64,000 nucleotides of DNA, from the NCBI GenBank assembly GCA_903910585.1, contig CAIWAH010000109.1:6511-70510 (forward strand), read 5' to 3'. Of this stretch, positions 40,978 through 57,524 are shown in pieces; within the stretch, counting starts at the first letter, position 1, and each line of letters opens with the position of its first letter. This DNA is from an uncultured Verrucomicrobiota bacterium (lineage in GTDB: Bacteria; Verrucomicrobiota; Verrucomicrobiia; Limisphaerales; UBA9464). The translations under genes and the position numbers were made by a program. The notes under the pieces were generated by a model that worked only from the letters and a program-made list of their open reading frames with translations, did not search any database and had not been told where the DNA came from.

Positions 40978-41982
40978 TCAGAAGTCGAACTGGTCGATGT
41001 TTTCTCGGGTGAACTTGAACGGTTCGCCCAGCAGGAGGTTGTCCCCGGCGATCCGGATCTCGCCAAGTTTGCCCGCGGTGAACGCCGTTGCGCCCGGCTT
41101 GAGCTCACCCTTGGCCAGCGCGGTCGCGGCCTGGATGGTCAGGTAGCCGAGGTCGAGCGTCTTCCACAGGATGACCGTGTCCGTGACGCCATCCTTGACG
41201 TAGCGCTTGTTCTCATTGGGCAGCCCGAGGCCGATGAGTTTCACCTGCCCGGCTTTGCCGGCCTGCTTGATGGCCTCGGCCGCTCCCGGGACCGCCGGCG
41301 AGCAGATCGCCATGATGAGCTTGAGATTGGGATTTGCGCTGAGCAGCGCCGTGGCTTCGCTCTGGGCCTTGTCCTTGAGGTCATCACAGGGACGCAGGGC
41401 CACGCGCTTCAGGTTGGGATGCTTCTCGGCGTTGCGTTTCTCGATGGCCTGCTGCCAGGCGATCATGTTTCCCGCCGTCAGGCTGGCGGTGATGATGGCG
41501 TATTCGCCGCTCCCGTTCAGCAACCGCGCGGCCTCGTCCGTCAGCGCGTTGCCGATGCCCTCCACCGTGGCCTGGTTCACGAAGAACTCCCGGGCGTCGG
41601 GCTGGGCGTCGGCGTCGTAGGTGACGACCTTGATGCCCTTGGCGCGCGCCTTGCGCAGGGCCGTGGAAATGCCGTCGCGGTTCTCGCAGGCCACGGCGAT
41701 CGCATCCACGCCGAGATTGATCCACTGCTCGACGATCTCATTCTGCTTGGCGGGATCGGGATCGGTCGGGCCGTCGAAGATCATCTCGATGCCCAACTCC
41801 TTGGCCGCGGCCTCGGCCCCCTGCCGGCAGGACATGAAGTAGGCGTTGCCCTTGGATTTCGGCATGAATGCCACCGTGATTTTCCTGCCGCCAGTCCCGC
41901 CGGATTCGGGAGCGGAGGCGGGCTTGCAGCCCAGGAACAGCGACACCAAGGCCAGCGCGAAGGCGGAGAGGAAGCGGTGCAT
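40978..41982 (-). CDS. Periplasmic sugar-type (LsrB/RbsB-like) ABC substrate-binding lipoprotein, orphan
   Basis: Lipobox LFLGC. Also KITVAFMPKSKGNAYFMSCRQGAEAAAKELG...GVDAIAVACENRDG...VVTYDADA. No permease or ATPase gene is adjacent. Confidence 0.78.
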   Translation of the reverse strand: MHRFLSAFALALVSLFLGCKPASAPESGGTGGRKITVAFMPKSKGNAYFMSCRQGAEAAAKELGIEMIFDGPTDPDPAKQNEIVEQWINLGVDAIAVACENRDGISTALRKARAKGIKVVTYDADAQPDAREFFVNQATVEGIGNALTDEAARLLNGSGEYAIITASLTAGNMIAWQQAIEKRNAEKHPNLKRVALRPCDDLKDKAQSEATALLSANPNLKLIMAICSPAVPGAAEAIKQAGKAGQVKLIGLGLPNENKRYVKDGVTDTVILWKTLDLGYLTIQAATALAKGELKPGATAFTAGKLGEIRIAGDNLLLGEPFKFTRENIDQFDF

Positions 41983-44248: not shown

Positions 44249-45994
44249 ATGACCGGGCAACGGGTAGCACAAACTTCAGTTGTGGGGATCACCACGGGCT
44301 GCTTCGGCGGCGTCCGCGCCGGATTGCTGGTGCTCGCGTGCCTGCAAGCTGGACCCGCCGCGCTCGGAGCCGACGGCAAACCCACGTTTGCCCGCGACAT
44401 CGCCCCCCTGCTCTACCGCCACTGCGCTCCCTGCCACCGGCCGGGCGAGGCCGGACCATTTTCGCTGCTGACGCTGGCGGACGCCCGGAAGCACGCAGCG
44501 GACATCGTCGAGGTGACCGCGGCAAGGCGGATGCCGCCGTGGCTCCCCGACGAGGGGGTGGAAGTCTTTCCGGAAGCACGCCGGCTGACGGCGACGGAGA
44601 TTGAATTGCTGAAGACGTGGGTGGCCTCCGGCACGCCGGAAGGCGATCCCGCGGACCTGCCGCCGCCACCGCAATTCACTCCCGGTTGGCAATTGGGGAC
44701 GCCGGATCTCGTGGTCACCTTTCCGAAGCCCTTTGAACTGGGTGCGGACGGCGCGGACGTGTTCCGCATCCTCGTGGCCCCGCTGGCGGTTACGTCCAAC
44801 CGGCACGTGCGCACCATCGAGTTTCGGCCCGGAAACCGCGCGGTGCACCATGCCCGCCTGGTTCTCGACACCACGGGCAAGGCCCGGAAGCGGGATGGCA
44901 AAGACGGCCAGCCGGGCTTTCCGGGGAAGATGCTGCCGGGCCAGGATCCTCCCGGGTTCTTGCTGGCTTGGGCACCTGGACGGGCTCCCTTGGCGGGCAA
45001 TGACGGCCTGTCATGGCCTTTGCAGCCGGGCACAGACCTCATCGTGGGTCTGCACCTGCAGCGCACGGGCAAAAAGGAACTGGTGCAGCCCACGGTCGGA
45101 TTCCACTTCACCGACCGGCCACCGACCAACACTCCGGTCATCGTGGGACTGGACGCGATGTCCCTCGACATCGAACCGGGCGCGACCAACTACGCCGTCG
45201 AATCCTCGCTGACGCTGCCCGTGGCGTCCGATCTGTTGTCCGCGCTTCCCCACGCCCATTACCTCGGCAAGGAGTTCGTTTTCCGGACCACGGAGCCGGG
45301 CGGCCAGCCGGTCACGCGGCTGCACATCCGCGACTGGGATTTCAACTGGCAGCTCGACTACCGCTACGGTCCGGCCATTTCGCTCGCAGCCGGCACCCGG
45401 CTGGATTTCCGGTGGACGTTCGACAACTCGGCGACCAATCCGCGGAATCCCAGCCGACCTCCCCGCCGCGTCCTCGACGGCTGGGAAACGACCGAGGAGA
45501 TGGCGCAACTCTGGCTCCAGCTGCTGCCCGGAGACGAGGCCGGCGGTATCGCGCTGCAGCGGGCCTTCGACAGCTCATACCGCGAGCAGAGTGTCGCGTT
45601 CTTCCGCGAACGGATCCGTCGCAACGCCAAGAATGCCGTGGCCCATTTTGACCTCGGCAAGACCCTGCTGGAACTCAACCGCGTGGACGAGGCTTTCGAG
45701 CCCCTCGCAACCGCGGACGAACTGCAGCCGAACGACGCGGAGTTCCTCCACCACCTCGGGCTGTATTTCCTCCGGCAGAAGCAGTTCGCCGCGGCAAGGG
45801 ACACCTTGGAGCGCGCGTTGGCGGCAGACCGGACCTTCTTCCGCAGCCAACTCCTGCTCGCGCAGATCGCGTTGGCACAGGAAGAGCCGGCCGAAGCGGC
45901 GGCCCGATTCCGGCAGACGCTCGAACTGGATCCGGGCAACGCAGACGCCCAGAAGGGCCTGAAATCGCTGGAGGCACGGGCCAACGGCAGGTAG
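44249..45994 (+). CDS. Heme-c motif + copper type II monooxygenase (PHM/DBH)-like + TPR fusion protein
   Basis: PSCyt-like FARDIAPLLYRHCAPCHRPGEAGPFSL (CxxCH). Candidate Cu ligands: AVHHARL ... LPHAHYLGKEF. C-terminal TPR-like helices (NAVAHFDLGKTLLELNRVDEA..., DAEFLHHLGLYFLRQKQFAAA...). The exact start is uncertain. Confidence 0.65.
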   Translation: MTGQRVAQTSVVGITTGCFGGVRAGLLVLACLQAGPAALGADGKPTFARDIAPLLYRHCAPCHRPGEAGPFSLLTLADARKHAADIVEVTAARRMPPWLPDEGVEVFPEARRLTATEIELLKTWVASGTPEGDPADLPPPPQFTPGWQLGTPDLVVTFPKPFELGADGADVFRILVAPLAVTSNRHVRTIEFRPGNRAVHHARLVLDTTGKARKRDGKDGQPGFPGKMLPGQDPPGFLLAWAPGRAPLAGNDGLSWPLQPGTDLIVGLHLQRTGKKELVQPTVGFHFTDRPPTNTPVIVGLDAMSLDIEPGATNYAVESSLTLPVASDLLSALPHAHYLGKEFVFRTTEPGGQPVTRLHIRDWDFNWQLDYRYGPAISLAAGTRLDFRWTFDNSATNPRNPSRPPRRVLDGWETTEEMAQLWLQLLPGDEAGGIALQRAFDSSYREQSVAFFRERIRRNAKNAVAHFDLGKTLLELNRVDEAFEPLATADELQPNDAEFLHHLGLYFLRQKQFAAARDTLERALAADRTFFRSQLLLAQIALAQEEPAEAAARFRQTLELDPGNADAQKGLKSLEARANGR

Positions 45995-46035: not shown

Positions 46036-49000
46036 TCACGATGCGGCCGCCGGGCGTCGGGCCGCGAGCCAGGCAAAGCCCGCGAGCACCGCGAACAACC
46101 CCGCAAGCAACACCACCCGGAAGCCCCACGGAGCCGTCTGGGCACTGGTGGCCTTCAGGCGGAGGTCCAGGTCCGCGTCGTGGTCCACCTGCACTGTGCG
46201 GCGGAACGTCAGCAGTTTGCCCTGCGACGGCACCGTGGCCCGGATCGCCGAAGGGACGGGCACCGCGGCGTCCTGCTGCTGCACGATGCGCTCGGCCAGC
46301 TTCATCAGCGTGGCGTTGTCCTCCGCGCTGTTGGCGTCGATGAGCTGCTTCGCCTCCTGCTGCGTGTAGGTCGCGTCCCGCCGGTTGCGGAGTTCCTTCA
46401 GGTTGCCGGGCGCGGGCGCGGCATCGCCGGCGGCGAGGTTCTGCCGCACGTTGAGGCCGACCAGCGCCTGCTGGAGCTTGAGGTTGTGCAACTGCACCCG
46501 GGCATCCTCGTTGAACGCGCTGTCGTGCGTGCTGAGGCCGAAGGCGCTGTTGAAGGCCCGCCGCGCCTGCGCCGGATCCCCCTGCTGGAGCAGCGAATTG
46601 CCGAAGGAAAGCATCTCCTCGGCGGCCTTGGTCTTGGCCCGGTTGGAGACCAGCTCGTTGTCGAGGTAGGATTTCACGTCCGTCACCAGCGGACGCACCT
46701 CGTAACTCTGGTCCTGCAACTGGAGTGAGCCGGACCAGTCGGCGAGCTGCCACTTTTCGTTGAGATAGACCTGCCAGGTGATGTTTTCGAGCGGCAGGTC
46801 GAACTTCGGTCCGTGCAGAGCGAGGTTGAGCTTGCGGGCACCGGCCTGCCCGATGCGGCTGGAGTAAAACACCTCGACGGTCGTGGCCTGATCCACCTTC
46901 GACTGCTGCTCCAGGGGCAGGAGAATCTGGTTGGTGCCCCGCCACGGCCAAACGCCGTTCTGGTTCACGAAGGCGAACCAGAATTCGGCGTCGCCCGGCA
47001 GCCCGAGGCTGAGCAGGCGTTTGTCGCCGGGAATCAGCTCGAGCCGGACCTGTGTGAGCATCACGCCCTCGTCGGAGATGACCGAGGTGAGCGTCACGTT
47101 GTTGACGCGCGCCGGCAGGAGCTTGGTCGCCTCGTGGCGATCAAGCGCGAGCGGCAGCGTGAAGGCCGGCTCCACCACACGGTAGGTGAAGCTCGCGGAG
47201 GCGTTCGCCAAATCCTGCAAAAGCGTCCGGGGAATGCCCTGCCACTCCGCCGGCTGGAGCGCGGCCGCCGGCGGCTCGGCGCGCACCTGCAACCGGCCGC
47301 CGGACTGCACGGTCACGAATCCGCGCTGAAGGTTCGCATCAGCCGCCAGCACGCCTTGGACGACCGCGTTGGTCGCGGCGTTCGCGAGCGGCGTCTGCCA
47401 GGTCACCTGGAGCATCTGCCGCCCAATGATCCGGCGATGCAGCTTCACGTCCCAGAGCTGGGTGCCGTTCGTCACCGAACCAGCCACCACCACGAAGTCC
47501 GCCACCTGGTCGCCCCGGAACCGCACGCCCTCGGCGTTCGCCGGCACGCGCACGCGCAGCGACTTCAGGCCGGTGTTCTCGATCTGGTATTGCAGGTTGG
47601 CGAGCACCTTGAGCTGAGCTTCACCGACCGTGACGTGCTGGAGGCACGTCACCTGCACCCACGCGTCCACCTGTTCGAGGCCCAGCGTGAGCGACCACTG
47701 CGGCTGCAGCAGGCGAAACGCGAGCACGCCCTTCTGCCGGATGCCGGCCTTCTCGGGATCGAGCTGCGTCACGCCGTCGCGGGCACCGACCTGGAAGCGC
47801 ATTCCCTGTTCCGGCACGATGACCAGTTGCCCGCGCTGTTTGGCCGCCTCGCGAAAGGTCAGCCGCGGCACGGCGTAACCGTTGGTCGCGCGCACACCCG
47901 GTCCGGCAAGGCTCACCTGAAACTGCTGCTGCCCCTCGGTCTTGCCCTTGAGATGCAGCGTGATCACGCGGCCGTCGTTGCCGCGCAGTTCGGTCCAGTG
48001 GCTCAGCGCCGCCCCGCTGATCGTTTCGACATCCAGCCCGGCGGGCAGGACGAAGCTCAGCCGGAAGATGCCCGCACGCGTCACGGTCACCGCGGCGTTC
48101 ACCGCCAGCAGCGTGCGGTCCTCGCTCAGCGACAGCGTCTCCTGCGTCTCCACTCGCACGTCGGGCTCAACCGCGGACGCCTTGAGCGTGATCGCGCCCT
48201 TCGCGTCGCCCTGCCGGAACGCCCGCCGCAGCGTGAGCCCGGCGATCTGGTTCCGCAGCGGCTCCAGCACGCCACCGGGAAAATCCTCGAGGTTCAGCGC
48301 CGTGAAGCCGTCCGCCGTCACGGTGTCGAGCTGCACCTCGTTGCCCGTGGCCACGCCAACGGAACCCACCTGCCCCGCCGCGCCGACCACGTTGAGCAGT
48401 CCCGCGGCCTGTTCGACCGGCAATGGTCCCGTCGCGATCTGCGAACGCACAATCAGCGTGAAGAGTTTTGACTGAGGTGCGGACAGCGTGACGCGCAGCC
48501 GCCGGGTGTCGGGATCGAAGCGCCAGAACAGCCCGGGACCAGCCGTGACCGGTTTGCCGATGATCACCTTCGTGGGATCCACGACGTCCGTGATGGTCGC
48601 GCCAATCGGCACCTCGAAGCTCACCTCGGTCAACTCACCTTGGGCCGGCCGGACCTGCACCGAATGCACGCCCTCGATGACGCCGGCTGCCGGCACGTAG
48701 AGCTGCGTGAAGTCGGCGTAGAAGACCGCGGCCTCGTTCTTCAGATCGCGACTGCGTGGTTTCCAGCCAATCCATGTCTCGGACGCCGGGGCGAGCACGA
48801 GACTGGCGACCGTCATGTTCGTCGGACCGGATTCACGGCGCACGGATACCGCGCTGGGCGAACTCACCTCCACGTCGAGGCCGGCGAGCGTGAGCTTGAG
48901 TCGGTTAACGAGCCCGTGGTGGGTGGGCAGAACGAAGCCCGGATGGCCGTCACGGCTGGCGACCTGCAGCTGATAGGTCAGTTCCACGTCGAACGTGCCC

Positions 49001-52000
49001 GACTGGAGCGCGAGCAACTGCTGGCCGGCCTTGTCAACCGCGCCAGTGCGGGCCAAGCGGAGTGCGTTGGTCGGATACTGGATACGCGTGAGCACCGCGG
49101 GCTCCGACAGAATCGGCAACGACTGGTCCTTCTGCGCGTGCCAGCGGATTTTCGCCGTCGCAAACACGAACCGTTCCTCCACGCGGATGTCCTGGACCAC
49201 GGACTCGGCCAAGGCCGGTTCCTTGGCCGTCGCAGTCACGGCTTGGGCGACCGCAGGCGCCGTCCCCACATCACTGAACCACAGCAGCGATCCCAACAAC
49301 AGCGCCGCCGCGGCGGGTGCGGCCGGAGCCGACGGTGCGGAAGGTGGCGAAGCCGATTTCGGCGGAACTTTGGTCAGTGCCCGCAGCGCCGGCCCGATCA
49401 CCTTGAACAACAGGAACGCGAGCAACACGGCGAGGCCCAGCCGTTCCCCGTTCGGCTGCCGCAGCGCGGCCCACGCGAGCAGCGTCCAACCCAGCGCGGA
49501 GCCGGACGAGCGCACGAAGCCCGGTTCCCTCAGCCACGCCCACACCCACACGGCCAGCGCAAGCACCGCCGGCCAGGCGGCCAGCACCGAGAACCCAACT
49601 CCGTAGGATTCCGGATTGTTGCCCACCTCCACCGTGAGGGCGCTGCCGGCTTGCTGAACCGGCGCGAGGAAATGGATTCCTCGCGGCAGTTCCAACGAAC
49701 CTCCGAGGCGTTCCGCGAACTGCAACCACGCCACCACCGACAGCACCAGCGCGAGGCAGCCGACAACGGTTCCGCCCGCGTGCCGGACTCCGAAGCGATG
49801 CGCGCCCTCCCGGGACGCCCAGCGCCACGCGGCCACAGCGCCAGCCGTCAGCACGAGCGCGAACAGGAGATTGAACACGGCCGAATCGTCGTGCAGCCGG
49901 CGAGCGAGCCCGGCGAAGCCCGAGTTGTCGGGCACGCCGTTTGCAGGGGCGAGCGAGCCGCGCCGATAGGTCAACCGGCGGCCGGTGTCAGGTTCGAGCC
50001 GCCATTCGGCCAGCATCACCGGCGCGGCCACGATGGGCGCGGCGGCCAGCACGCGGGCGGCGTTCGCGGATTTGGAAGCGAGCTTCAGGTCGAGGCGTTG
50101 GACGGTGTTGGGATCGGCCTTCTGCGGCAGCGGAATCAGGTTGGCGTCACCGTCCTTCACCGGCACGACGGTCGCGCCGTTCACCGTGGCCGACCACAGC
50201 GTGGTGCCCGCCGGCAGACTCAGCCGCAGGTGCGGATTGCCGCGGTTCTTCACGAAGTATTGCGCGTCGGTAATCACCTCGCCGTCCTGGGAGATGCGCG
50301 TGGTGAGCGCGGCTCGGTCCACGACCAGGCTGAGCGTGTTGGCCTGGGCCAGCGGGCTGAGTGCGAGCTGAAGGTTGAACGGCCGCGCGGAGTAGCGGTA
50401 GGCCTTGAGGATGGGCGCGTCGAAGAACAGGCGGTATTCCGCGGGCACCTCGGCGGTCTCCAGTTCGAGCAGGCTGGCGGAGACGTTCGCGGGCGTGACC
50501 TGGAACTGATATGCGCTGACCACGAGCGTGTGCCCCTGCTCCGCCTGCGCGTCCACCGGCCGGGCACCGGTGAAGGTGAGCGTGTCGCCCTGCGGCTTGA
50601 ACGGCCGCTCGTAGGTCGCGAGCAGCGTGTAGGCGCCGGCCACCGGCGTGTTCAGCGTGACGACATAGCCGTTGGTCGTGCGCTGCCAGTTGTTCCGCAC
50701 GTCCTTCCCGGTGAACTCCACGTTGAAATACTCGTCGGACAACGCCACGAGGAACGACGACACCGGCGCGCCGGCGATGAAGAAGTTCATCGTGCTGCTG
50801 CCGTAGGCGATGCCTTCGCCGATGGAGAACAGGTGGAACACGTCGGCCTGCACGGACTGCGGCAGCCGCTCGACGCGCAGCGCGGCGGACCACGCCGGAT
50901 CGGTCAGGCGGAAGGCGGCCTGAATGCCGGCGACCTTGCGCGGGAAGAACGCCGTGGCGATGTCGGTCAGCGCCTGCGTGCGGTCGGGCGTGAGACGGAA
51001 GCCCGCGTCGGCCGACACGGCGACGTGGCCGCGGGTGGACTTCGCCCGGAACACTTCGAGGCGCGGCAACGCCCAATTGGTTCCGCCCAGGGCGGCGTTG
51101 CGCTCGAGCCGCAACTGGATGAGCTGGCGGTCGCCGACAGGCTGGCCATAGACCACGCGCAATTCCGCGTCGGCGGAATCCGGCAGGTCGCGCAGGAAAT
51201 AGTCGTTCATGCCGGCCGCGTTCAGGCGGGCGACCACGAAGCCCCGCGGCACGCGCAGCAGCACCTCGCGCAGGGGCGCCTCGCGGATGTCCAATTCGAA
51301 CTCCGCGTCCACCGCGAGCTCGGTCTCGCCCAGGTGATAGGTGAGCACCTGCGAGACGCCGACCTCGGGCAGCACGTTGTCGGCGTTGATCCGCAGGGCA
51401 AAGTCGGCGCTGGAGAACCGAAACGCGAAGCGCGAACCGGCCGGATTGCCGAACAGCGCCTTGGTCGCGTCGGACTCGGGAAACTGCTCCGGCGAAATTT
51501 GCGACAGGCCGCTCGCCTGCACGACTTCGAGCCGGACCGCGCCCTCGTTGACCACGCGCACATGGCCGGCGAACCGCGTCGCGCCGTCCGGGCGCAGTTG
51601 CATCGCCTCCACCGCCTGCGGGAAGGCGCCCAACTCGGACTGCATCTGCACCTGGAGCGCGAAGGCGTCCTTCTGCGGGCGGTTGAACTGCACCACGAGC
51701 CGCCGTTCGCCGTTGGCCGCGGCCGGCTCCACCTTCCACGACAGCAGGTCGGCCCCCTGCACGGCGGTGACGTTGCCGGTGCCGCGGACGGCGAGGTCAA
51801 GGCGGCTGAGTTCGCCCTGCATCACCCGGCCCTCGACCAGCGCCACCTGGCGCATGAGGCCGGGGCTCACGCTGATCTGTGCCTGCATTTCGGCCGCGTA
51901 GAAGAGCCGGCCCTCGGCTTCGGGACGCGCCTCCTTCCAGCCGAGCTTCACCGTGCCATCGGGCGGCAGGAAACTGCGGAAGACATCCCCGTCGCGTTCG

Positions 52001-53229
52001 GGCCGCGCCGCGCCGGCGAACTCGAACTGCGTGTCGGCGGCGAGCCCCAGCAGTTTCACGGGCGACAACACGCCGGGCGCGAGCCGGAACTCCACCGCCC
52101 GCCAGCCGGCGTTCTGCCGGACAGCGGCATGGAACTTCAGGCGGAGCGGGAAGGTGCCGGGACGGTCGAAGACGAGTTCAAAGCGGCCGTCGTGGAAGCG
52201 CAGCCGCACGTCGGGATTCCGTTCCAGATCGGCCAATGCCACGGCGCCCGACAGCAATGCCAGCGTGCCGCCCTTGGGGTTTTTCACCTGCGCGGTGGCG
52301 ACGAGCGTGAACGCGGCTTCCTCCCCGCCGAGCTGACCTTCGAGCGCGAAGTCGCGCAGCACGACCCGCGTGCTGTCGGGATCACCGACCGCAACAACCA
52401 GCGGCAACGCGTAGGCGCTGCCCTGGAAGCGGAAGCCCAGCGGCTCGGGCGCGTCGGGCTTGGGTTCGGTGCGGAGTCCTTCGGGCAGGAACTTCAGCGG
52501 CACGGGAGCGAGCCCCACGGTGTTGGTTGGCTGGAGGTCGAGGCCGGGCGCCGCGTCGAGCCGCAGGTAACCGGACGACAGCACGGCGGGCGTGGTGGTC
52601 AGCGTCAGGAGGGAAAGCGGCTGGTTCCAGTCCCGGACCTCGTGGTCGGCAGTAATGGTGAGATTGAAGCCGGTCGGCGGCTGGTCAGCCTTGCGCGGCC
52701 GGATGACCAAAGTGCGGACACCGTTGGTGCCCTGGCGCACGGCCCAGTCGAGGATCCCGTCGCCAGTCACGCTGCGGATCTCGCCCTCGCCGCCGAGCGT
52801 GAAGGGCAGCTCCGCCGGTTCGCCCTGCAGCACCTCGATCTTCGCGCGGATGACATGGCTGACCTTGTCCGGCCCAACGGTGACCGCCTGCTCGGTGGCG
52901 GTGGAGAACAGCGCCTTGTCCGCGCCCAGTCCGCCGCCCGCCAGCAACGCCTCGATCACCAGGCGCGCCTTGCCATCCTGGATGCCGCCGTTCAGGGAGA
53001 GGTCCTTGATCTCCGCAGTGGCGGCGCGAGCGGGGAGGAGAAAGGACAGCAGGAACGCGACAAGGAAGGCGAAGGCGGCCCAGCGAGTAGGCCGGGCCGC
53101 TGGCCCGGCATCGTAGTTCAGGCTGCCAGCCTGAACGAAGCCGCGGCCAAGCTGGCAGCTTGGCCTACGAGTCGGGCTGGCAGCCCGACCTACTAGGGGG
53201 CAGTGCCGTTTCACGCGGTCGGTGTCCAT
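46036..53229 (-). CDS. Giant (~2400 aa) internally duplicated membrane protein of unknown family
   Basis: Single uninterrupted ORF. N-terminal hydrophobic anchor: WAAFAFLVAFLLSFLLPARAATA. A central cluster of TM helices is encoded at about 49270-49885. C-terminal TM: VVLLAGLFAVLAGFAWLAA. Two ~1100-aa beta-rich modules are alignable by eye. Candidate starts are the ATG at 53229 (MDTDR) or at 53259; no canonical start lies closer to the anchor. Confidence 0.8.
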   Translation of the reverse strand: MDTDRVKRHCPLVGRAASPTRRPSCQLGRGFVQAGSLNYDAGPAARPTRWAAFAFLVAFLLSFLLPARAATAEIKDLSLNGGIQDGKARLVIEALLAGGGLGADKALFSTATEQAVTVGPDKVSHVIRAKIEVLQGEPAELPFTLGGEGEIRSVTGDGILDWAVRQGTNGVRTLVIRPRKADQPPTGFNLTITADHEVRDWNQPLSLLTLTTTPAVLSSGYLRLDAAPGLDLQPTNTVGLAPVPLKFLPEGLRTEPKPDAPEPLGFRFQGSAYALPLVVAVGDPDSTRVVLRDFALEGQLGGEEAAFTLVATAQVKNPKGGTLALLSGAVALADLERNPDVRLRFHDGRFELVFDRPGTFPLRLKFHAAVRQNAGWRAVEFRLAPGVLSPVKLLGLAADTQFEFAGAARPERDGDVFRSFLPPDGTVKLGWKEARPEAEGRLFYAAEMQAQISVSPGLMRQVALVEGRVMQGELSRLDLAVRGTGNVTAVQGADLLSWKVEPAAANGERRLVVQFNRPQKDAFALQVQMQSELGAFPQAVEAMQLRPDGATRFAGHVRVVNEGAVRLEVVQASGLSQISPEQFPESDATKALFGNPAGSRFAFRFSSADFALRINADNVLPEVGVSQVLTYHLGETELAVDAEFELDIREAPLREVLLRVPRGFVVARLNAAGMNDYFLRDLPDSADAELRVVYGQPVGDRQLIQLRLERNAALGGTNWALPRLEVFRAKSTRGHVAVSADAGFRLTPDRTQALTDIATAFFPRKVAGIQAAFRLTDPAWSAALRVERLPQSVQADVFHLFSIGEGIAYGSSTMNFFIAGAPVSSFLVALSDEYFNVEFTGKDVRNNWQRTTNGYVVTLNTPVAGAYTLLATYERPFKPQGDTLTFTGARPVDAQAEQGHTLVVSAYQFQVTPANVSASLLELETAEVPAEYRLFFDAPILKAYRYSARPFNLQLALSPLAQANTLSLVVDRAALTTRISQDGEVITDAQYFVKNRGNPHLRLSLPAGTTLWSATVNGATVVPVKDGDANLIPLPQKADPNTVQRLDLKLASKSANAARVLAAAPIVAAPVMLAEWRLEPDTGRRLTYRRGSLAPANGVPDNSGFAGLARRLHDDSAVFNLLFALVLTAGAVAAWRWASREGAHRFGVRHAGGTVVGCLALVLSVVAWLQFAERLGGSLELPRGIHFLAPVQQAGSALTVEVGNNPESYGVGFSVLAAWPAVLALAVWVWAWLREPGFVRSSGSALGWTLLAWAALRQPNGERLGLAVLLAFLLFKVIGPALRALTKVPPKSASPPSAPSAPAAPAAAALLLGSLLWFSDVGTAPAVAQAVTATAKEPALAESVVQDIRVEERFVFATAKIRWHAQKDQSLPILSEPAVLTRIQYPTNALRLARTGAVDKAGQQLLALQSGTFDVELTYQLQVASRDGHPGFVLPTHHGLVNRLKLTLAGLDVEVSSPSAVSVRRESGPTNMTVASLVLAPASETWIGWKPRSRDLKNEAAVFYADFTQLYVPAAGVIEGVHSVQVRPAQGELTEVSFEVPIGATITDVVDPTKVIIGKPVTAGPGLFWRFDPDTRRLRVTLSAPQSKLFTLIVRSQIATGPLPVEQAAGLLNVVGAAGQVGSVGVATGNEVQLDTVTADGFTALNLEDFPGGVLEPLRNQIAGLTLRRAFRQGDAKGAITLKASAVEPDVRVETQETLSLSEDRTLLAVNAAVTVTRAGIFRLSFVLPAGLDVETISGAALSHWTELRGNDGRVITLHLKGKTEGQQQFQVSLAGPGVRATNGYAVPRLTFREAAKQRGQLVIVPEQGMRFQVGARDGVTQLDPEKAGIRQKGVLAFRLLQPQWSLTLGLEQVDAWVQVTCLQHVTVGEAQLKVLANLQYQIENTGLKSLRVRVPANAEGVRFRGDQVADFVVVAGSVTNGTQLWDVKLHRRIIGRQMLQVTWQTPLANAATNAVVQGVLAADANLQRGFVTVQSGGRLQVRAEPPAAALQPAEWQGIPRTLLQDLANASASFTYRVVEPAFTLPLALDRHEATKLLPARVNNVTLTSVISDEGVMLTQVRLELIPGDKRLLSLGLPGDAEFWFAFVNQNGVWPWRGTNQILLPLEQQSKVDQATTVEVFYSSRIGQAGARKLNLALHGPKFDLPLENITWQVYLNEKWQLADWSGSLQLQDQSYEVRPLVTDVKSYLDNELVSNRAKTKAAEEMLSFGNSLLQQGDPAQARRAFNSAFGLSTHDSAFNEDARVQLHNLKLQQALVGLNVRQNLAAGDAAPAPGNLKELRNRRDATYTQQEAKQLIDANSAEDNATLMKLAERIVQQQDAAVPVPSAIRATVPSQGKLLTFRRTVQVDHDADLDLRLKATSAQTAPWGFRVVLLAGLFAVLAGFAWLAARRPAAAS
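53111..53195. repeat. Cluster of three perfect palindromic REP-like units
   Basis: gttcaggctg-c-cagcctgaac (53116-53136), ggccaagctg-g-cagcttggcc (53145-53165) and gtcgggctg-g-cagcccgac (53171-53189). They share a gctgSCagc core and are flanked by tcgtag/ctacga. Confidence 0.8.
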
Positions 53230-53302
53230 CGCGTCCGACACACTGGGTTCATTTCGCATAACTCAAGATTCCTTCTGAAAGACTCCTCACCCTTCCCGCC
53301 GC

Positions 53303-56300
53303 TCACTTCCCGCTCACGCTCTTGGCCTGTTGCAGCATCTGGAGGAACTGCTTCGGGCGCGGGTCGGCGGCGTAGGTGTCGGTCACGCCGTTCAGCAGGC
53401 CGAGCAGGCGGTCGGGCGTGACCTCGGCGGCGTAGGGACTCGACACCAGCCACTCGCTGAAGGCCGAAGCGCTGGCCGCCAGCCGCAACGCCGGACCGGC
53501 CTGATCCAGGGGACGCGCCGTGCCGTCGTAGAGCAGCCGCCATTCGTGCTCGCGGTAATCGTCCGTGCCGGGCACGCGGAAGCGCACCCGCACCGTGCCG
53601 AGCGGGCCTTCGCCGGCCGGGTTCACCTGCACCGTGTAAAGCGCGTTGCCTGCCTCGGCCGCCCCGATCTCGGCGGCATCCACCGTGTTGTCGCGGAACT
53701 GCTCCTTCTTCAGCTGATGCTTCGCGTAGCCGAGCTGCCGGTAGGCGGTGACGCGCCGCGGGTTCCACTCGACCTGCACCTTCACGTCGGACGCGGCGAT
53801 CTGGAGGGCGCCGACGAGTTGTCCGGCGAACTCACTTTGCGCGGCTTCGGGTGTGTTCACGAAGCCGTAGCGGCCGTCGCCGTTGCGCGAAAGGCTCTCA
53901 AGCAATTCGTCGTTCAGCCCCTCCCAGCCGATGCCGAAGCAGTCGAGCGCAATGCCCTGCTTCCGGTTCGCCTCCACCTGCCGGCGAAGCGACTCTGGCT
54001 CCACGTCGCCGAGGTTGGCCGCGCCGTCGGTGAGCAGCACGACGCGGTTCACGCCGTTCGCGGCGAAGTGCCGGGAGGCCGTCTGGTAGGCGGTGCGGAG
54101 CGCCTCCTCCAAATTCGTGCCGCCATCGGGCGTGAGTTCGCCGACGCGCCCGGGCAGTTCCGCGGCCTGGGCACCGTCGAGGCCATCCACCCACAGGCGC
54201 GACGTGCGGGCAAACGCGACCACGCTCACGCGGTCCTGCGGCTGCAACTGCCCGGTGAGCACGCGCAGGCACTCCTGCCGGATGCGGACGCGGTCGGCGC
54301 GTTCCATCGAGCCGGAGTTGTCGAGCAACAGCACGAGGTTCAGCGGACGGCCCGGCTGCCGACCGCTCGCGGCGGTCTTCACGGAGAAGCGGACGAGGTC
54401 GCGGTCGTGGGCGAAGGGATAACGGGCGCGTTCCCACGCAAAGGCCACCGGCGCGCCGCCCACGGGCTCGGGATCACGGTAGTCGAAAGCGTTGATGAAC
54501 TCCTCGGTGCGAACCGTCGCCGGCTCGGGCATCTGGCCCTTCTCCAAGGCGGCGGCGGCGAGCTTGAACGACACGTCGCTGACGTTGAGCGAAAAGGTGG
54601 AGAAGGCGTTGTCGGTGGTTGAGACCTCGGCCTGCGGTTCGGGCGCGCCGGGGGCGAGCTTGGGAAGCGGGGCGTCGCCATCAGAAGCGAGTCTCTCCAC
54701 AGGAACCGCCATCTGCGACCGGATGCGGACCCGCGGATACGGGTTTCCAGCATTTCCTGAGTTCTCAGCCGCAAACATCCGCCCTAGCACCGGCACGTCA
54801 CCCAGCGCCGGTGTGGCGGCATTTGTGGCCAGACCGAAGTAGAAAGCCACCGGCTCCGCCGGCTTGCCCAAAGCCACCTGCTGCCGCAGCTCCTCGCCTT
54901 CCGCGAGGCGGTCCAACTGGACGAATCCCTTGTCAGCCGTATCGGCTTTCGCCTTGGCCCGGACGAAGCGGGAAACATCGGCCGGAGCGTCCGCTGCCTC
55001 AACGACCTGCGCCGGCACACCGAGGATGGCTAGGGGCTGGGATCTCTCTTTGGCCTCAGCTTGCGACTGCGCTTCCTCAGTCGGGGGGGGCTCCTGTGCC
55101 GTAACGCGGGGTGTCGCCAGGCCATTCTGCTGGAACAGTGCAAACTTTCCCTGATCGGCTTCGGCCAGTCGTTCTTGCACCCTAATCGCGTTGGGGCTGC
55201 CCCCGTCCTTGGCTACGTCGAAGCCGATGCCTACTGCGGACTCCGCCTTGCCTGACTGGCTGGCATCGTCCAAGTAGCCCCGCGGCGCCCCGGCGAGCCC
55301 GCCGCGGGTGCCTCCATCAACTCCGCGGCCACGCTCCAAGCTGCGGGCCAGCACATCACGACGATTGGCCGGCGGGACTGCGGCCTGATCCGCCAACTCC
55401 GTCTTCTTTTCGGAGGCAACTCGGGATCGCAATTCGCTGGAGAGAACCGTTGGACCTTTGACCTCCACCGCGAATGCAACCGTGTCGGCCGTGGCGGCAG
55501 CAAACCCTTCCTGCGGCGCCGGCACCGGAGCCGGGGCCGCGGAGTTGATCGGAGCGCCGGCAACCGCAACGCCCGCGCCGCCGGCAAACCCGCCCCCGGC
55601 AGTGCCGCCGATGCCGGTGGAGGTCCGGAACTCCCAGGTCTGTTGCCTGCGGGCATTACCAGCAGCCACTTGAAAGCCGTCCGCGAGCGCGGTTTCACCA
55701 ACGGTGTTTTCGCCGCGCGTCGGCTGATTGACAGAGCCGAAGAACTCGGTCGTCGTCGCCCCGCGGCTATCGTTCGCGGCCAGTGACTTCCCTGCGGGCA
55801 GCGCGCCGGCGTTTCGCGCTAGCACCTGTTCGTTCAGCAACTTTGTGTCCCCATCTGAATCCGCCCGCTGCTTGCTGAGCACTTCCAGTGAATCGCCCCC
55901 ACTGGAAGAATTGTCGGCCACGGGCGCCGGCATCGGAGCGCCACCCGCTGGTGCGAGTCCGTAGCGCCGGGCCAAGACCGGCTCCATTGAGCGTGGCGGC
56001 GCCGAGGCCCCCGAAGCGTCCCATTTTGGTTTGACCGCTTCTTCCCGCTCCATGCGCTCTCCGAGTTCCGCCATGCGGGCGGTTTGGGCCGCCGATACTC
56101 GCTGCGCCTTGGACTTCGCCTTCGCCAGAGCCGGCATGCACATGCCCGCGGCAGTCACCACCGCCACCAGCATTGCCGCCAAGGCAAGCAGCTCGTGCCG
56201 GTCCGCCCACGCCTTCCGGGCAAAGGCAGGCACGCGCACCACGTTGGCGGGCGGCTTCCTGAATTTGGCCAGCAGGGCGGCGCGGCGTTCCGGCGCGAGC

Positions 56301-56524
56301 TGCAGGGGTTCCGGTTTGCTCAGTTCCTTGGGTTCAGGCGAGCAGACGGTTTCACGCGCCAGGCTGTCGGCCAGGCTAAGGCGGCGGAAAAGGGAGGCGA
56401 GGGCGGCATCCGCGGCGATCTCGGCGCGCAGGGACTCGGCCTCGGCGGCGGGCAGTTCGCCGTGAAGCAGCGCGGTCAGACGCGCCTCGCGGGCATCGGG
56501 CGGCAGGGAAGCGTCAGGGTTCAT
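53303..56524 (-). CDS. Anti-sigma-like N-terminus + TM + low-complexity linker + YfbK-type VWA module (vWA-N / VWA / DUF3520-like)
   Basis: N-terminus EARLTALLHGELPAAEAESLRAEIAADAALASLFRRL. TM: LLALAAMLVAVVTAAGMCM. vWA-N-like region: AFSTFSLNVSDVSFKLAAAALEKGQMPEPATVRTEEFINAF. MIDAS: LVLLLDNSGSM...DGGTNLEEAL...VVLLTDGAANLG. Tail: VKVQVEWNPRRVTAYRQLGY. Confidence 0.85.
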   Translation of the reverse strand: MNPDASLPPDAREARLTALLHGELPAAEAESLRAEIAADAALASLFRRLSLADSLARETVCSPEPKELSKPEPLQLAPERRAALLAKFRKPPANVVRVPAFARKAWADRHELLALAAMLVAVVTAAGMCMPALAKAKSKAQRVSAAQTARMAELGERMEREEAVKPKWDASGASAPPRSMEPVLARRYGLAPAGGAPMPAPVADNSSSGGDSLEVLSKQRADSDGDTKLLNEQVLARNAGALPAGKSLAANDSRGATTTEFFGSVNQPTRGENTVGETALADGFQVAAGNARRQQTWEFRTSTGIGGTAGGGFAGGAGVAVAGAPINSAAPAPVPAPQEGFAAATADTVAFAVEVKGPTVLSSELRSRVASEKKTELADQAAVPPANRRDVLARSLERGRGVDGGTRGGLAGAPRGYLDDASQSGKAESAVGIGFDVAKDGGSPNAIRVQERLAEADQGKFALFQQNGLATPRVTAQEPPPTEEAQSQAEAKERSQPLAILGVPAQVVEAADAPADVSRFVRAKAKADTADKGFVQLDRLAEGEELRQQVALGKPAEPVAFYFGLATNAATPALGDVPVLGRMFAAENSGNAGNPYPRVRIRSQMAVPVERLASDGDAPLPKLAPGAPEPQAEVSTTDNAFSTFSLNVSDVSFKLAAAALEKGQMPEPATVRTEEFINAFDYRDPEPVGGAPVAFAWERARYPFAHDRDLVRFSVKTAASGRQPGRPLNLVLLLDNSGSMERADRVRIRQECLRVLTGQLQPQDRVSVVAFARTSRLWVDGLDGAQAAELPGRVGELTPDGGTNLEEALRTAYQTASRHFAANGVNRVVLLTDGAANLGDVEPESLRRQVEANRKQGIALDCFGIGWEGLNDELLESLSRNGDGRYGFVNTPEAAQSEFAGQLVGALQIAASDVKVQVEWNPRRVTAYRQLGYAKHQLKKEQFRDNTVDAAEIGAAEAGNALYTVQVNPAGEGPLGTVRVRFRVPGTDDYREHEWRLLYDGTARPLDQAGPALRLAASASAFSEWLVSSPYAAEVTPDRLLGLLNGVTDTYAADPRPKQFLQMLQQAKSVSGK

Positions 56525-56789: not shown

Positions 56790-57341
56790 TCATGGCACAA
56801 GTCCGGTGCGGGCGAGTTCGGCGGCGAGGGTTTTCAGCGCGTGGTGCAGCAGGTAACCGACGTGGCCGGCTTCGAGCCCGGTGCGCTCACCGATCTCGCG
56901 GTAGGAGAGGTCCTCGGCGTATTTTAGCCGGACGACTTCGCGGCTGCGTTCGTCCAGCGCGGCCAGGCTCAGCCTGACCAACCCGATGCCTTCCCAGCGC
57001 AGCAGTTGCTCATCCGGCAGCAGCCCCGGATCGGGCCCTTCGGTGGCGGGATTCGGCGTGTCTTCGGCGGCCGGCTGGAAGGGCACGATCTTGTCGGCGT
57101 CGCGGCGGTGGTTGAGGGCGAGATTGTGCACGGTGCGGTAAAGCCAGCGGCGCGGCTCGCGGACTTCACCGAACTGGGCGTGCAATCTCATGAAGGCTTC
57201 CTGGGTGATGTCCTCGGCCGGCCCCCGTTCGCCGACCAACCGGAGCGCGTAGGCGAGCAGGGGCGATTCGAGGGCGGCGAACAGCTCCTCGATCGTTCCG
57301 GCCGGCTCGGGCTCGGGTTGGGCGGTTGCGGGGCAGACCAC
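56790..57341 (-). CDS. ECF (sigma-70 family group 4) RNA polymerase sigma factor
   Basis: Region 2: LLAYALRLVGERGPAEDITQEAFMRLHAQF...RWLYRTVHNLALNHRR. Region 4: REVVRLKYAEDLSYREIGERTGLEAGHVGYLLHHALKTL. GTG start. Confidence 0.9.
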   Translation of the reverse strand: MVCPATAQPEPEPAGTIEELFAALESPLLAYALRLVGERGPAEDITQEAFMRLHAQFGEVREPRRWLYRTVHNLALNHRRDADKIVPFQPAAEDTPNPATEGPDPGLLPDEQLLRWEGIGLVRLSLAALDERSREVVRLKYAEDLSYREIGERTGLEAGHVGYLLHHALKTLAAELARTGLVP

Positions 57342-57407: not shown

Positions 57408-57434
57408 ATTACGACACGGCCGCGGGAAGTTTCT
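57408..57434 (-). promoter_or_regulatory. Weak candidate ECF-type promoter upstream of the sigma gene
   Basis: The minus strand reads AGAAACTT-CCCGCGGCCGTGT-CGTAAT. The AAC and CGT elements are 15 nt apart, about one nt shorter than many ECF promoters. It is embedded in an unusually AT-rich patch (57430-57460). Confidence 0.25.
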
Positions 57435-57524
57435 TAGAAAATAGTTTCAGGAAACATTCCCAACCGCCACCAGCCGCCCTGAGGAACGCCGGAAACTTCG
57501 CTTCCGCCCCGCCGGGAGCGCAGT

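What the first reader, a model, noticed from the sequence alone, without database searches (positions are those of the whole stretch)
46036..53229. Giant protein is an internal duplication with an unusual anchor-ectodomain-TM cluster-ectodomain-anchor layout
Hydrophobic segments occur at the N-terminus (WAAFAFLVAFLLSFLL), in a central cluster of about 5-6 helices (encoded at ~49270-49885) and at the extreme C-terminus. The two ~1100-aa stretches between them align by eye. For example LTTRISQDGEVITDAQYFVKNRGNPHLRLSLPAGTTLWSATVNGATVVPVKDGDANLIPLP aligns with LTSVISDEGVMLTQVRLELIPGDKRLLSLGLPGDAEFWFAFVNQNGVWPWRGTNQILLPLE. Module 2 begins with its own signal-like segment (AAALLLGSLLWFSDVGTAPAVAQA). 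This suggests a fusion of two paralogous genes. The C-terminal ~250 aa add a coiled-coil/TPR-like region before the last TM.
Basis: seen in the sequence. Interest (0 to 1): 0.55.

Follow-up and report, generated by a model that had tools for sequence, protein, structure and literature searches.

The report
Duplicated giant envelope protein, sigma-factor linked
The 2,407-residue protein really is an ancient internal duplication: two beta-sandwich domains outside the inner membrane, joined by a cluster of membrane helices and an internal signal peptide. It belongs to an unnamed family found across Verrucomicrobia and their relatives, and it always sits behind an ECF sigma factor and a VWA-domain anti-sigma factor, so its function is unknown but can now be tested.

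Summary
ORF 46036-53259 (-) encodes 2,407 aa. Residues 361-1103 align with residues 1414-2179 at 26% identity over 781 columns (BLASTP E=6e-34; profile-profile probability 99.8%). Residues 94-359 are a third, partial copy. Hydrophobic segments lie at the N-terminus, at 1125-1331 and at the C-terminus. AlphaFold models (pLDDT 87-89) show tandem beta-sandwich arrays, five confident TM helices, a short signal-like helix, and a helical tail before the last TM.

The duplication is ancestral and always fused. About 100 full-length representatives and more than 50 genome loci carry one ORF. The apparent split genes are frameshifts, in-frame stops or contig ends.

The N-terminal "anchor" is a cleavable-type signal peptide in homologues. 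The internal one carries AxA motifs, or a lipobox in one subfamily, which suggests processing into two chains.

The family has no Pfam, NCBIfam or PDB match. It gives 2,233 clusters at 50% identity and occurs in at least 595 species genomes, nearly all Verrucomicrobiota or Planctomycetota. In 52 of 53 loci the gene follows an ECF sigma gene and a zf-HC2/VWA/YfbK_C anti-sigma gene with an invariant MIDAS site. A conserved promoter motif precedes the operon.

The most likely role is a non-enzymatic periplasmic scaffold or sensor coupled to that sigma/anti-sigma pair. This is inferred, not shown.

The parts
46036..53259 (-). Giant ORF, 2,407 aa plus stop. It is one uninterrupted reading frame.
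   Evidence: GC3 0.88. Full-length homologues of 2,100-2,450 aa.
53026..53082 (-). N-terminal hydrophobic segment (aa 60-78) followed by ARA|ATAE. It is a signal peptide of the cleavable type. In this genome it is preceded by an unusually long n-region of 44-59 aa.
   Evidence: Homologues start MRF..LLPAHA|ATAELKD.
52183..52980 (-). N-terminal extension (aa 94-359). It is a third, partial copy of the module core. It is absent from the ~2,100-aa subfamily.
   Evidence: hhalign of the extension against the A core: probability 98.1%, E=8e-14, 261 columns. Architectures.
49951..52179 (-). Module A core (aa 361-1103), a tandem beta-sandwich array predicted to be periplasmic.
   Evidence: AlphaFold model m85ccf34bd8fb, pLDDT 88.8. 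Foldseek results.
49372..49887 (-). Central TM cluster. It has five confident helices (aa 1125-1148, 1158-1185, 1229-1243, 1248-1267, 1272-1296). A conserved periplasmic beta-hairpin (aa 1195-1216) lies between TM2 and TM3.
   Evidence: It is conserved across the family, with 4-6 segments by crude hydropathy. It is less conserved (0.41-0.53 identity) than the ectodomains (0.65-0.83).
49240..49371 (-). Lys/Pro-rich cytoplasmic linker (aa 1297-1314) plus an internal signal-peptide-like segment (aa 1315-1331) and an AVAQA c-region (to aa 1340).
   Evidence: At the best-scoring site, position -1 is Ala in 61/82 representatives and -3 is Ala or Val in 64/82. About 9 of 62 short-subfamily members have a lipobox-like [GAS]C.
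46723..49020 (-). Module B core (aa 1414-2179), paralogous to module A core. It is a tandem beta-sandwich array.
   Evidence: AlphaFold model m8ceefd463b53, pLDDT 87.2. Foldseek results.
46264..46677 (-). Helical tail (aa 2195-2332). It holds one TPR-like hairpin and the family's most conserved motif, NEDARVQL (aa 2250-2257, nt 46489-46512).
   Evidence: The genome scan chose this motif as the most conserved peptide pattern.
46060..46128 (-). C-terminal TM anchor (aa 2378-2400), followed by the cytoplasmic RRPAAAS.
   Evidence: Present in nearly all full-length homologues.
53303..56524 (-). Upstream gene of 1,073 aa. It has an anti-sigma N-domain and one TM. A poorly conserved linker of about 470 aa follows. 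It ends in vWF_A, VWA and YfbK_C (DUF3520) domains with an intact MIDAS site (D735, S737, S739, T803, D833).
   Evidence: Pfam. zf-HC2 in homologues. MIDAS invariant in 52/52 homologues, T in 51/52. Directly upstream in 52/53 loci.
56790..57341 (-). ECF sigma factor, 183 aa (sigma-70 regions 2 and 4).
   Evidence: Upstream on the same strand in 49/53 loci by tblastn; in L086, one of the four missed, precomputed Pfam hits show a sigma gene.
57413..57438 (-). Promoter-like bipartite motif TCTAAGAAA-N12-GTGTC, 72-97 nt upstream of the sigma start codon.
   Evidence: It is unique in the window, with 0 expected by chance. The same motif lies upstream of the sigma gene in 30 loci by the strict pattern, and a looser pair occurs in 31/46 loci against 3-4 in shuffles. 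A second copy lies directly upstream of the giant gene in L043 and L045.

Best explanation
Anatomy (well supported). The gene encodes a conserved inner-membrane envelope protein specific to the PVC superphylum. Each of two paralogous ectodomains of about 750 aa is a chain of beta-sandwich domains. A partial third copy sits at the N-terminus. Both ectodomains are placed in the periplasm. The order is:
- an N-terminal signal peptide;
- module A;
- five TM helices;
- a short positively charged cytoplasmic linker;
- an internal signal-peptide-like sixth hydrophobic segment that re-exports the chain;
- module B;
- a helical tail;
- a final TM anchor.

Origin. An ancient tandem duplication and fusion became fixed before the family diversified.

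Function (inferred). The protein is non-enzymatic. It works together with the ECF sigma factor and the VWA-containing anti-sigma factor that always precede it. It is co-transcribed from the sigma-type promoter. It most likely acts as the periplasmic scaffold or sensor that the anti-sigma factor's MIDAS-bearing VWA domain binds. In that case changes in the envelope would be relayed to sigma-factor release. This is analogous to the third component of FecI/FecR/FecA-type signalling cassettes.

Possible processing (inferred). The internal signal peptide may be cut by signal peptidase I, or by signal peptidase II in the lipobox subfamily. One ORF would then yield two stoichiometric chains.
For: Shown:
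- Duplication.
- TM helices, and charge distribution consistent with both modules outside: cytoplasmic loops and linker carry net K/R, the TM2-TM3 loop is net acidic, and the C-tail is RR.
- Models: high-confidence all-beta modules and a helical tail. Foldseek hits go only to non-catalytic beta-sandwich ectodomains: ribophorin I/Ost1, integrin alpha legs, A2M and complement MG domains, PIG-T.
- Invariant residues are mostly G, W, P and F, and no catalytic signature was noticed (by inspection).
- A LysM domain is inserted in module A of two members, which fits a periplasmic, peptidoglycan-proximal location.
- The fused architecture is universal.
- The cassette sigma / VWA anti-sigma / giant is present in 52/53 loci. 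It persists in members only 24-26% identical, including a MAG labelled Planctomycetes.
- MIDAS is invariant in 52/52 homologues.
- The conserved promoter motif lies upstream of sigma, and in two loci also upstream of the giant gene.
- Only 43 nt separate the anti-sigma stop from the giant start in the window.
- Internal AxA and lipobox motifs, and classical N-terminal signal peptides in homologues.
Against: - No experiment and no homologue of known function exists. Pfam, NCBIfam, PADLOC and PDB sequence searches were all empty.
- Binding between the VWA domain and the giant protein is pure inference from gene linkage.
- AxA enrichment over other TM flanks is moderate in this Ala-rich proteome (74% against 49% of control TM flanks reaching score >=5).
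- Cleavage of internal signal peptides is rare in bacteria, as far as I know.
- Model pTM is only about 0.46, so the arrangement of domains is unknown.
- Fold matches have low TM-scores (0.13-0.35) and reflect generic beta-sandwich tandems.
- The topology comes from hydropathy, charge and AlphaFold, not from a dedicated predictor.
Confidence: 0.5

Rival explanations
1. The giant protein is only an output of the ECF sigma factor. It would be an envelope-protecting, adhesive or structural periplasmic protein induced under stress, with no part in sensing or in controlling the anti-sigma factor.
For: Many ECF operons carry effector genes behind the sigma/anti-sigma pair (general knowledge). The gene is co-transcribed and in two loci has its own copy of the sigma-type promoter. 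The beta-sandwich arrays and an occasional LysM insert would fit a structural role.
Against: The three genes stay strictly adjacent across very deep divergence (24% identity). That is more typical of physically interacting partners. The invariant MIDAS site needs a ligand, and the giant protein is the only other conserved periplasmic protein in the cassette.
Confidence: 0.3
2. The protein is a pseudo-symmetric transporter or channel. The central TM cluster would be the functional core and the two ectodomains accessory. This would resemble RND or MmpL proteins, which also arose by internal duplication and carry two large periplasmic domains.
For: There is an internal duplication with large periplasmic domains and several TM helices.
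Against: The duplication covers the ectodomains only. The TM helices are not duplicated and are the least conserved part (0.41-0.53 against 0.65-0.83 identity). The family consensus shows no obvious conserved charged or polar residue inside the helices. There are only 5-6 central helices plus one terminal helix. No transporter family matches.
Confidence: 0.07
3. The long ORF is an artefact or a recent accident. It would be two neighbouring paralogous genes merged by a sequencing or assembly error, or fused only in this lineage, with the separate-gene form being the norm elsewhere.
For: Some database entries of 1,075-1,260 aa contain only module B. Locus L003 has two adjacent gene calls. L004 shows a module-B gene with non-coding-looking DNA upstream.
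Against: Of the 57 loci whose module-B-containing ORF does not run off the upstream contig end, 53 have a single open frame of more than 2,100 codons. About 100 representatives at 50% identity contain both modules. L003 keeps the module-B frame open and homologous upstream of the called start, so it is a frameshift in a 2x-coverage contig. L007 has an in-frame stop and L072 a frameshift. L004 starts 118 nt from a contig end and cannot be judged.
Confidence: 0.03

Closest known systems
Ribophorin I / Ost1 subunit of eukaryotic oligosaccharyltransferase (PDB 8b6l_O, 6s7o_E, 6ezn_A, 6c26_1). The chain identities come from my knowledge of these entries and from chain lengths, not from a tool.
   Same: It is the best Foldseek match for both modules (E 4e-11 to 4e-7, probability 1.0). 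Both are non-catalytic tandem beta-sandwich ectodomains on the non-cytoplasmic side of the membrane, followed by a TM helix.
   Different: TM-scores are only 0.13-0.35, identity is 8-12%, and there is no sequence or Pfam match. The modules here are about twice as long and are duplicated. The protein is bacterial, and no oligosaccharyltransferase-type gene appears among the called neighbours of the cassette. This is fold-level resemblance only.
ECF sigma group ECF289 (Casas-Pastor et al. 2021, PMC7826278), defined by an anti-sigma factor with DUF3520 (YfbK_C) fused to a von Willebrand domain
   Same: The upstream pair here is an ECF sigma factor plus an anti-sigma factor with vWF_A, VWA and YfbK_C domains.
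   Different: Membership of this sigma factor in ECF289 could not be tested because no group HMM was available. The main text of the paper does not mention a giant duplicated protein as a conserved neighbour. Its supplementary files were not held.
FecI/FecR/FecA-type cell-surface signalling cassettes (general knowledge)
   Same: The gene order is sigma, then a single-pass anti-sigma with a periplasmic sensor domain, then a large envelope protein that would supply the signal. The operon looks autoregulated.
   Different: The third component here is an inner-membrane beta-sandwich protein, not a TonB-dependent outer-membrane transducer. The anti-sigma periplasmic domain is VWA/YfbK_C, not FecR/STN-binding. 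There is no homology. This is an analogy of logic only.
Integrin alpha/beta ectodomains (PDB 8t2v_A, 4g1m_A, 3fcs_A and others)
   Same: The second tier of Foldseek hits goes to integrin alpha leg domains (thigh and calf beta-sandwiches). The partner gene carries a MIDAS-type VWA domain, as integrin beta subunits do.
   Different: The integrin matches have low TM-scores (0.09-0.16) and 7-10% identity, so no integrin-specific architecture is supported. The VWA domain is on a separate anti-sigma protein. This is convergent or generic domain use.
Bat aerotolerance-type operons (VWA proteins BatA/BatB plus the beta-sandwich membrane protein BatD). This is recalled from memory.
   Same: VWA-domain membrane proteins are encoded next to a large secreted or TM-anchored beta-rich protein of unknown function.
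   Different: No BatD or other Bat family matched the giant protein in Pfam or NCBIfam. Only a weak BatA-type VWA match was seen for the anti-sigma (E 7e-6, far below cut-off). No MoxR or DUF58 genes are in the cassette.

Membership tests
Any curated protein family (Pfam-A, NCBIfam, PADLOC) for the giant protein | A match to a family HMM at or above its curated threshold | tested here: not met
   Pfam gave only sub-threshold noise (CBM_35 18.6 bits against a cut-off of 28). Twenty-one diverse members gave nothing shared. NCBIfam gave 0 and PADLOC 0.
Ribophorin I / Ost1 (PF04597) | Sequence-level membership (Pfam Ribophorin_I) | tested here: not met
   No Pfam hit even at E<=1. PDB sequence and profile searches found no OST subunit.
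Ribophorin I / Ost1 (PF04597) | Global fold match of the luminal double beta-sandwich | tested here: inconclusive
ECF sigma / anti-sigma module with a VWA-YfbK_C anti-sigma (ECF289-like) | An ECF sigma factor with regions 2 and 4 only | tested here: met
   Sigma70_r2 and r4_2 hits; TIGR02937 at 78.7 bits against a cut-off of 42.9.
ECF sigma / anti-sigma module with a VWA-YfbK_C anti-sigma (ECF289-like) | A downstream (+1) membrane protein with an anti-sigma N-domain fused to vWF/VWA and DUF3520 | tested here: met
   vWF_A, VWA and YfbK_C are above threshold. zf-HC2 appears in homologues L085 and L086. A hydrophobic stretch at about aa 111-133 looks like a single TM by inspection.
ECF sigma / anti-sigma module with a VWA-YfbK_C anti-sigma (ECF289-like) | Phylogenetic placement of the sigma factor inside group ECF289 | not testable with these tools
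   No ECF-group HMMs or tree were available. The supplementary files of PMC7826278 were not held.
VWA domain with a functional MIDAS (anti-sigma partner) | DxSxS…T…D metal-coordinating residues | tested here: met
   D735, S737, S739 and D833 are invariant in 52/52 cassette homologues, and T803 in 51/52.
Sec-type cleavable signal peptide at the start of module B (internal) | An n-region with positive charge, a short h-region, and small residues at -3 and -1 (or a lipobox Cys) | tested here: inconclusive
   At the best-scoring site, position -1 is Ala in 61/82 representatives and -3 is Ala or Val in 64/82. The score threshold is passed by 74% against 49% for control TM flanks. A lipobox-like [GAS]C occurs in about 9 of 62 short-subfamily members, against a Cys frequency of 0.25%. 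No SignalP or DeepTMHMM was available, and there is no cleavage evidence.
RND/MmpL-type pseudo-symmetric transporters | Duplicated TM bundles (6+6) with conserved intramembrane charged residues | tested here: not met
   The TM cluster has 5-6 helices and is not duplicated. It is not homologous to the tail. It is weakly conserved. No transporter family matched.

The most novel reading that the evidence does not exclude
One ORF would act as a bacterial membrane 'polyprotein'. The conserved internal signal peptide is cleaved by signal peptidase I, or lipidated and cleaved by Lgt/LspA in the lipobox subfamily. This releases module B as a separate chain that pairs with its paralogue module A in fixed 1:1 stoichiometry. 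The resulting pseudo-heterodimer is the MIDAS ligand of the VWA anti-sigma factor, possibly through the invariant acidic NEDARVQL motif. The whole would be an integrin-like, metal-dependent envelope-sensing switch controlling an ECF sigma factor across the PVC superphylum.
Probability: 0.15. Interest if true: 0.75.

Novelty: new variant of a known kind. Interest (0 to 1): 0.5.

Why it matters
This is one of the largest conserved genes in Verrucomicrobiota and related phyla. It is present in at least 595 species-level genomes and forms 2,233 clusters at 50% identity. It has no name, no domain annotation and no literature that I could find.

Tying it to a specific ECF sigma / VWA anti-sigma pair and a conserved promoter turns a 'hypothetical protein' into a three-gene signalling cassette that can be tested in cultivable PVC bacteria.

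If the internal signal peptide is really processed, it would be a rare bacterial example of two envelope proteins made from one membrane-inserted precursor. If the VWA-MIDAS domain binds the giant protein, it would define the input mechanism for a class of ECF anti-sigma factors whose signal is unknown.

Tried and rejected
- Pfam, NCBIfam and PADLOC scans of the giant protein, and Pfam on 21 diverse members, found no family.
- PDB sequence and profile searches found only sub-significant TPR-like matches in the tail and spurious GPCR matches in the TM cluster.
- Whole-protein BLASTP against itself returned only the identity HSP, so the two modules were compared separately.
- I searched for genuinely separate A and B genes among the 1,075-1,260-aa hits. 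They were fragments, frameshifts or stop-interrupted genes. L004 remains ambiguous.
- I searched for paralogues elsewhere in the window and in about 1.5 Mb of related loci and found none.
- I tested whether the TM cluster is a hydrophobic version of module B's helical tail. It is not (hhalign probability 0.3%).
- I tested whether the convergent downstream TPR gene (44249-45994) or the upstream 267-aa ORF belongs to the cassette. Neither is conserved.
- My first crude locator for the internal h-region mis-hit a hydrophobic beta-strand, so I redid it.
- My first promoter pattern used the wrong spacer length and found nothing. I corrected it.
- Literature searches for the cassette returned only the ECF classification paper.
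Full report

The window has one long ORF at 46036..53259 on the minus strand, 2,407 codons, with GC3 of 0.88.

Hydropathy and AlphaFold helices place hydrophobic segments at these residues:
- 60-78 (N-terminal);
- 1125-1148, 1158-1185, 1229-1243, 1248-1267 and 1272-1296 (central cluster);
- 1315-1331, which is short and signal-like and is followed by APAVAQA;
- 2378-2400 (C-terminal).

BLASTP of aa 81-1125 against aa 1336-2375 gives a single co-linear HSP. It joins aa 361-1103 to aa 1414-2179, with 26% identity over 781 columns and E=6e-34. Profiles built from 38 family members align with probability 99.8% and E=4e-28.

2. FINER ANATOMY

The N-terminal 280 aa of module A (aa 94-359) are a third, partial copy of the core region aa 433-706 (hhalign probability 98.1%, E=8e-14). 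A subfamily of about 2,100-2,250 aa lacks this extension.

Module B has a helical tail of about 200 aa that module A lacks. The TM cluster is not a diverged copy of that tail (probability 0.3%).

AlphaFold2 with family alignments gave confident models. Module B plus tail has pLDDT 87.2. Module A core plus the TM cluster has pLDDT 88.8. Both cores are uninterrupted chains of beta-sandwich domains.

After module A come, in order:
- five TM helices;
- a structured beta-hairpin in the TM2-TM3 loop;
- a low-confidence Lys/Pro-rich linker;
- a 12-residue helix, which is the signal-like segment.

After module B come long helices (aa 2195-2332), a small beta-hairpin and the last TM helix. pTM is about 0.46, so the mutual arrangement of domains is not known.

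The charge distribution fits both modules lying outside the cytoplasm:
- Cytoplasmic side: the SREGAHRFG loop, REPG, the KVPPK linker and the C-terminal RR.
- Periplasmic side: the TM2-TM3 loop, which is net acidic.

The tail contains one TPR-like hairpin, but the match is only weak (E 0.03-0.3 against consensus-TPR chains). The tail also holds the most conserved motif of the whole family, NEDARVQL.

3. FAMILY AND DISTRIBUTION

The word-indexed search returned 519 proteins. The best 120 listed are about 2,080-2,610 aa (mostly 2,300-2,450). Those that carry a name are called 'hypothetical' and come from Verrucomicrobiota or Chthoniobacter. None has a Pfam domain.

An exhaustive phmmer search of module B against 1.84 billion cluster representatives found 2,233 hits at E<=1e-3 and 510 at E<=1e-30.

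HMMs for each segment show that almost every full-length representative has the same order: A core, TM cluster, B core, tail. The N-terminal, central and C-terminal hydrophobic pattern is conserved as well.

The 80 best are nearly all labelled Verrucomicrobiota: Chthoniobacterales, Limisphaerales and Verrucomicrobiales, including Prosthecobacter. A few MAG labels are obviously wrong. Distant members (24-28% identity) include a MAG labelled Planctomycetes and genomes of 8.6-8.8 Mb.

4. IS IT A FUSION OF TWO GENES THAT EXIST SEPARATELY ELSEWHERE?

I found no evidence for that.
- Fifty-seven loci have a module-B-containing ORF that does not run off the upstream contig end. In 53 of them the reading frame is a single open stretch of more than 2,100 codons.
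- Database entries of 1,075-1,260 aa with only module B are fragments.
- In L003 two adjacent genes are called. However, the module-B frame stays open and homologous upstream of the called GTG, reading '…LAKVAVAKKPKPENES…' against '…LRALTKVPPKSASPP…' in the window. The tail of the upstream gene is out-of-frame nonsense, and the contig has 2x coverage. This is a frameshift.
- L007 has an in-frame stop and L072 a frameshift.
- L004 starts 118 nt from a contig end and is ambiguous.
- No paralogue occurs elsewhere in the window or in the flanks of the fetched loci.

So the duplication-fusion is ancient and fixed. Both modules are under comparable purifying selection, with 0.65-0.83 identity in the cores among relatives at least 58% identical. 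The TM cluster is the least conserved part at 0.41-0.53.

Single-module relatives among the roughly 1,700 weaker hits could not be inspected, because only the best 150 are listed.

5. THE TWO SIGNAL PEPTIDES

Homologues begin with textbook signal peptides, for example MRFNLSGLFAALFTFLFALLPAHA|ATAELKD. The window protein shares the h-region and the ARA|ATAE site. Its only possible start codons are codons 1, 7, 11 and 16, so its n-region is 44-59 aa long.

The segment before module B is not conserved in sequence across 82 diverse representatives, but it is conserved in form. It has a polar or positive stretch, a 12-14-residue hydrophobic core, and then small-x-small. Examples are …SNRA|AAE, …DAFA|AAN, …QPARA|DS and …FSANA|DN.

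With a simple -3/-1 score, position -1 is Ala in 61/82 and position -3 is Ala or Val in 64/82. In total, 74% reach the strict threshold, against 49% of control TM flanks from the same proteins. The enrichment is real but moderate in this Ala-rich proteome.

More telling, about 9 of 62 members of the short subfamily have a lipobox-like …[GAS]C at exactly this place, such as AVGC, ALSC, PLGC and LSGC. Cysteine makes up only 0.25% of residues in the family.

I infer that the internal segment works as a real export signal and may be cleaved. This is not shown.

6. FOLD COMPARISON

Foldseek against the PDB gave the same ranking for both models:
- first, chains that I recognise as ribophorin I/Ost1 of oligosaccharyltransferase (8b6l_O, 6s7o_E, 6ezn_A, 6c26_1; E 4e-11 to 4e-7);
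- then integrin alpha legs;
- then alpha-2-macroglobulin and complement MG arrays, PIG-T, and the N-domain of M1 peptidases.

TM-scores are 0.1-0.35 and identities 7-13%. This says 'tandem beta-sandwich ectodomain of the non-catalytic, scaffolding or binding type' and nothing more specific.

Invariant residues are mostly Gly, Trp, Pro and Phe. Two members carry a LysM domain inserted between the extension and the A core (Pfam E 3.8e-14). That fits a periplasmic location near peptidoglycan.

7. GENOMIC CONTEXT, THE MAIN NEW FINDING

The upstream gene ends 43 nt before the giant gene, on the same strand. It encodes a 1,073-aa protein with these parts:
- an anti-sigma-like N-terminus;
- one TM helix;
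- a poorly conserved linker of about 470 aa;
- vWF_A, VWA and YfbK_C (DUF3520) domains.

Upstream of that gene lies an ECF sigma factor.

The same three genes, in the same order, occur in L001, L002 and L003. Of the 53 loci with at least 5 kb of upstream sequence, 52 have the VWA gene and 49 have the sigma gene by tblastn. In L086, one of the four where tblastn missed the sigma gene, the precomputed Pfam hits show it. The order also holds in the most distant members examined, L085 and L086, where the anti-sigma also shows zf-HC2.

The MIDAS residues of the VWA domain are invariant in 52/52 cassette homologues.

A bipartite motif, (TTTCG)TCTAAGAAA-N12-GTGTC, lies 72-97 nt upstream of the sigma start codon (window 57413-57438, minus strand). 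It is unique in the 64-kb window, with 0 expected by chance. By the strict pattern it is found upstream of the sigma gene in 30 loci. A looser pair occurs in 31/46 loci, against 3-4 in shuffles. In L043 and L045 a second copy sits directly upstream of the giant gene.

I read this as the autoregulated promoter of the ECF sigma factor. That puts the giant gene in the sigma factor's regulon. The promoter function is inferred.

Casas-Pastor et al. (PMC7826278) describe group ECF289 as having an anti-sigma factor with DUF3520 fused to a von Willebrand domain. I could not test whether this sigma factor belongs to that group.

8. HOW IT MOST LIKELY WORKS

Shown:
- the duplicated beta-sandwich ectodomains;
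- the membrane segments;
- the conserved fusion;
- the conserved cassette, MIDAS site and promoter motif.

Inferred:
- Both ectodomains are periplasmic.
- The protein is non-enzymatic.
- It is made together with the sigma/anti-sigma pair.
- It is the periplasmic partner (ligand or scaffold) of the anti-sigma VWA domain. The long flexible linker of the anti-sigma would let the VWA domain reach along the ectodomain.
- Disturbance of that contact would trigger sigma release, as in FecI/FecR/FecA-type three-gene logic.

The main rival is that the protein is merely a stress-induced structural output. A transporter role is unlikely, and an assembly artefact is excluded.

9. NOVELTY

The family is unannotated, and I found no paper on it.

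The building blocks are familiar: an ECF module, a VWA domain and beta-sandwich arrays. The combination is not, nor is the architecture of signal peptide, ectodomain, 5 TM helices, internal signal peptide, paralogous ectodomain, tail and TM anchor. I therefore rate it a new variant of a known kind, of moderate interest. Interest would rise if internal processing or VWA binding is confirmed.

Noticed in passing
window 57413-57438 (-), and upstream of the sigma gene in 30 related loci: A conserved bipartite promoter-like motif, TTTCGTCTAAGAAA-N12-GTGTC(A/G)T, lies about 75-100 nt upstream of the ECF sigma gene. It is unique in the window. Its -35-like part (TCTAAGAAA) looks different from the GGAAC-type ECF -35 consensus I recall from memory.
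   Followed up: partly
P0123 aa ~312-355 and P0153 aa ~298-345 (family members, not the window): A LysM (peptidoglycan-binding) domain is inserted between the N-terminal extension and the module A core in two divergent family members.
   Followed up: partly
L016 4426-6113, L021 5157-6456, L022 4802-6608, L077 3790-5891, L002 9508-9996: In some lineages one to three extra genes for small secreted proteins sit between the VWA anti-sigma gene and the giant gene. Two types recur: about 198 aa in L016 and L021, and about 230-240 aa in L021 and L077. A 480-557-aa protein is shared by L022 and L077. They may be lineage-specific accessory components.
   Followed up: partly
L004 1-3631 (GCA_028280355.1, contig JANQMB010000170.1): A module-B-only gene (P0188, 1,095 aa) is preceded by one TM segment, a Lys/Arg-rich linker and the signal-like segment. 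Upstream of that, about 115 nt have stops in all frames, right at the contig start. It could be a genuine stand-alone module B or a broken or chimeric contig end. BlaI/BlaR1-like genes lie downstream.
   Followed up: partly
loci L024, L029, L043, L045, L050, L052, L064, L072, L074, L075, L080, L082: Contigs carrying this typically verrucomicrobial cassette at 58-64% identity are labelled Bifidobacteriaceae, Bifidobacterium, Candidatus Acidoferrum, Acidiferrales, Sulfotelmatobacter or Limnocylindrales. These are probably mis-binned or mislabelled MAGs.
   Followed up: no
window 53303-56524 (-), aa ~150-600 of the anti-sigma factor: A linker of about 470 aa, Ala/Gly/Pro-rich and almost unconserved (0.06-0.17 identity), joins the TM helix to the conserved VWA/YfbK_C part. 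Some homologues carry PATR (autotransporter-associated) repeats there (L001, L002).
   Followed up: no
window 53083-53259 (-), aa 1-59 of the giant protein: This genome and its 94%-identical relative P0001 have a 44-59-aa basic N-terminal extension before the signal-peptide core. Other homologues start 5-25 aa before the core. No start codon exists after codon 16, so the extension is probably translated.
   Followed up: partly
window 39426-41108 (-), 62536-63900 (-), 44249-45994 (+): Neighbouring genes encode other surface-type proteins: a 560-aa DUF11-repeat protein, a 454-aa LamG/Laminin_G_3 protein, and a convergent 581-aa TPR protein. None is conserved next to the cassette in other genomes. 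A TPR gene is also convergent downstream in L085.
   Followed up: partly
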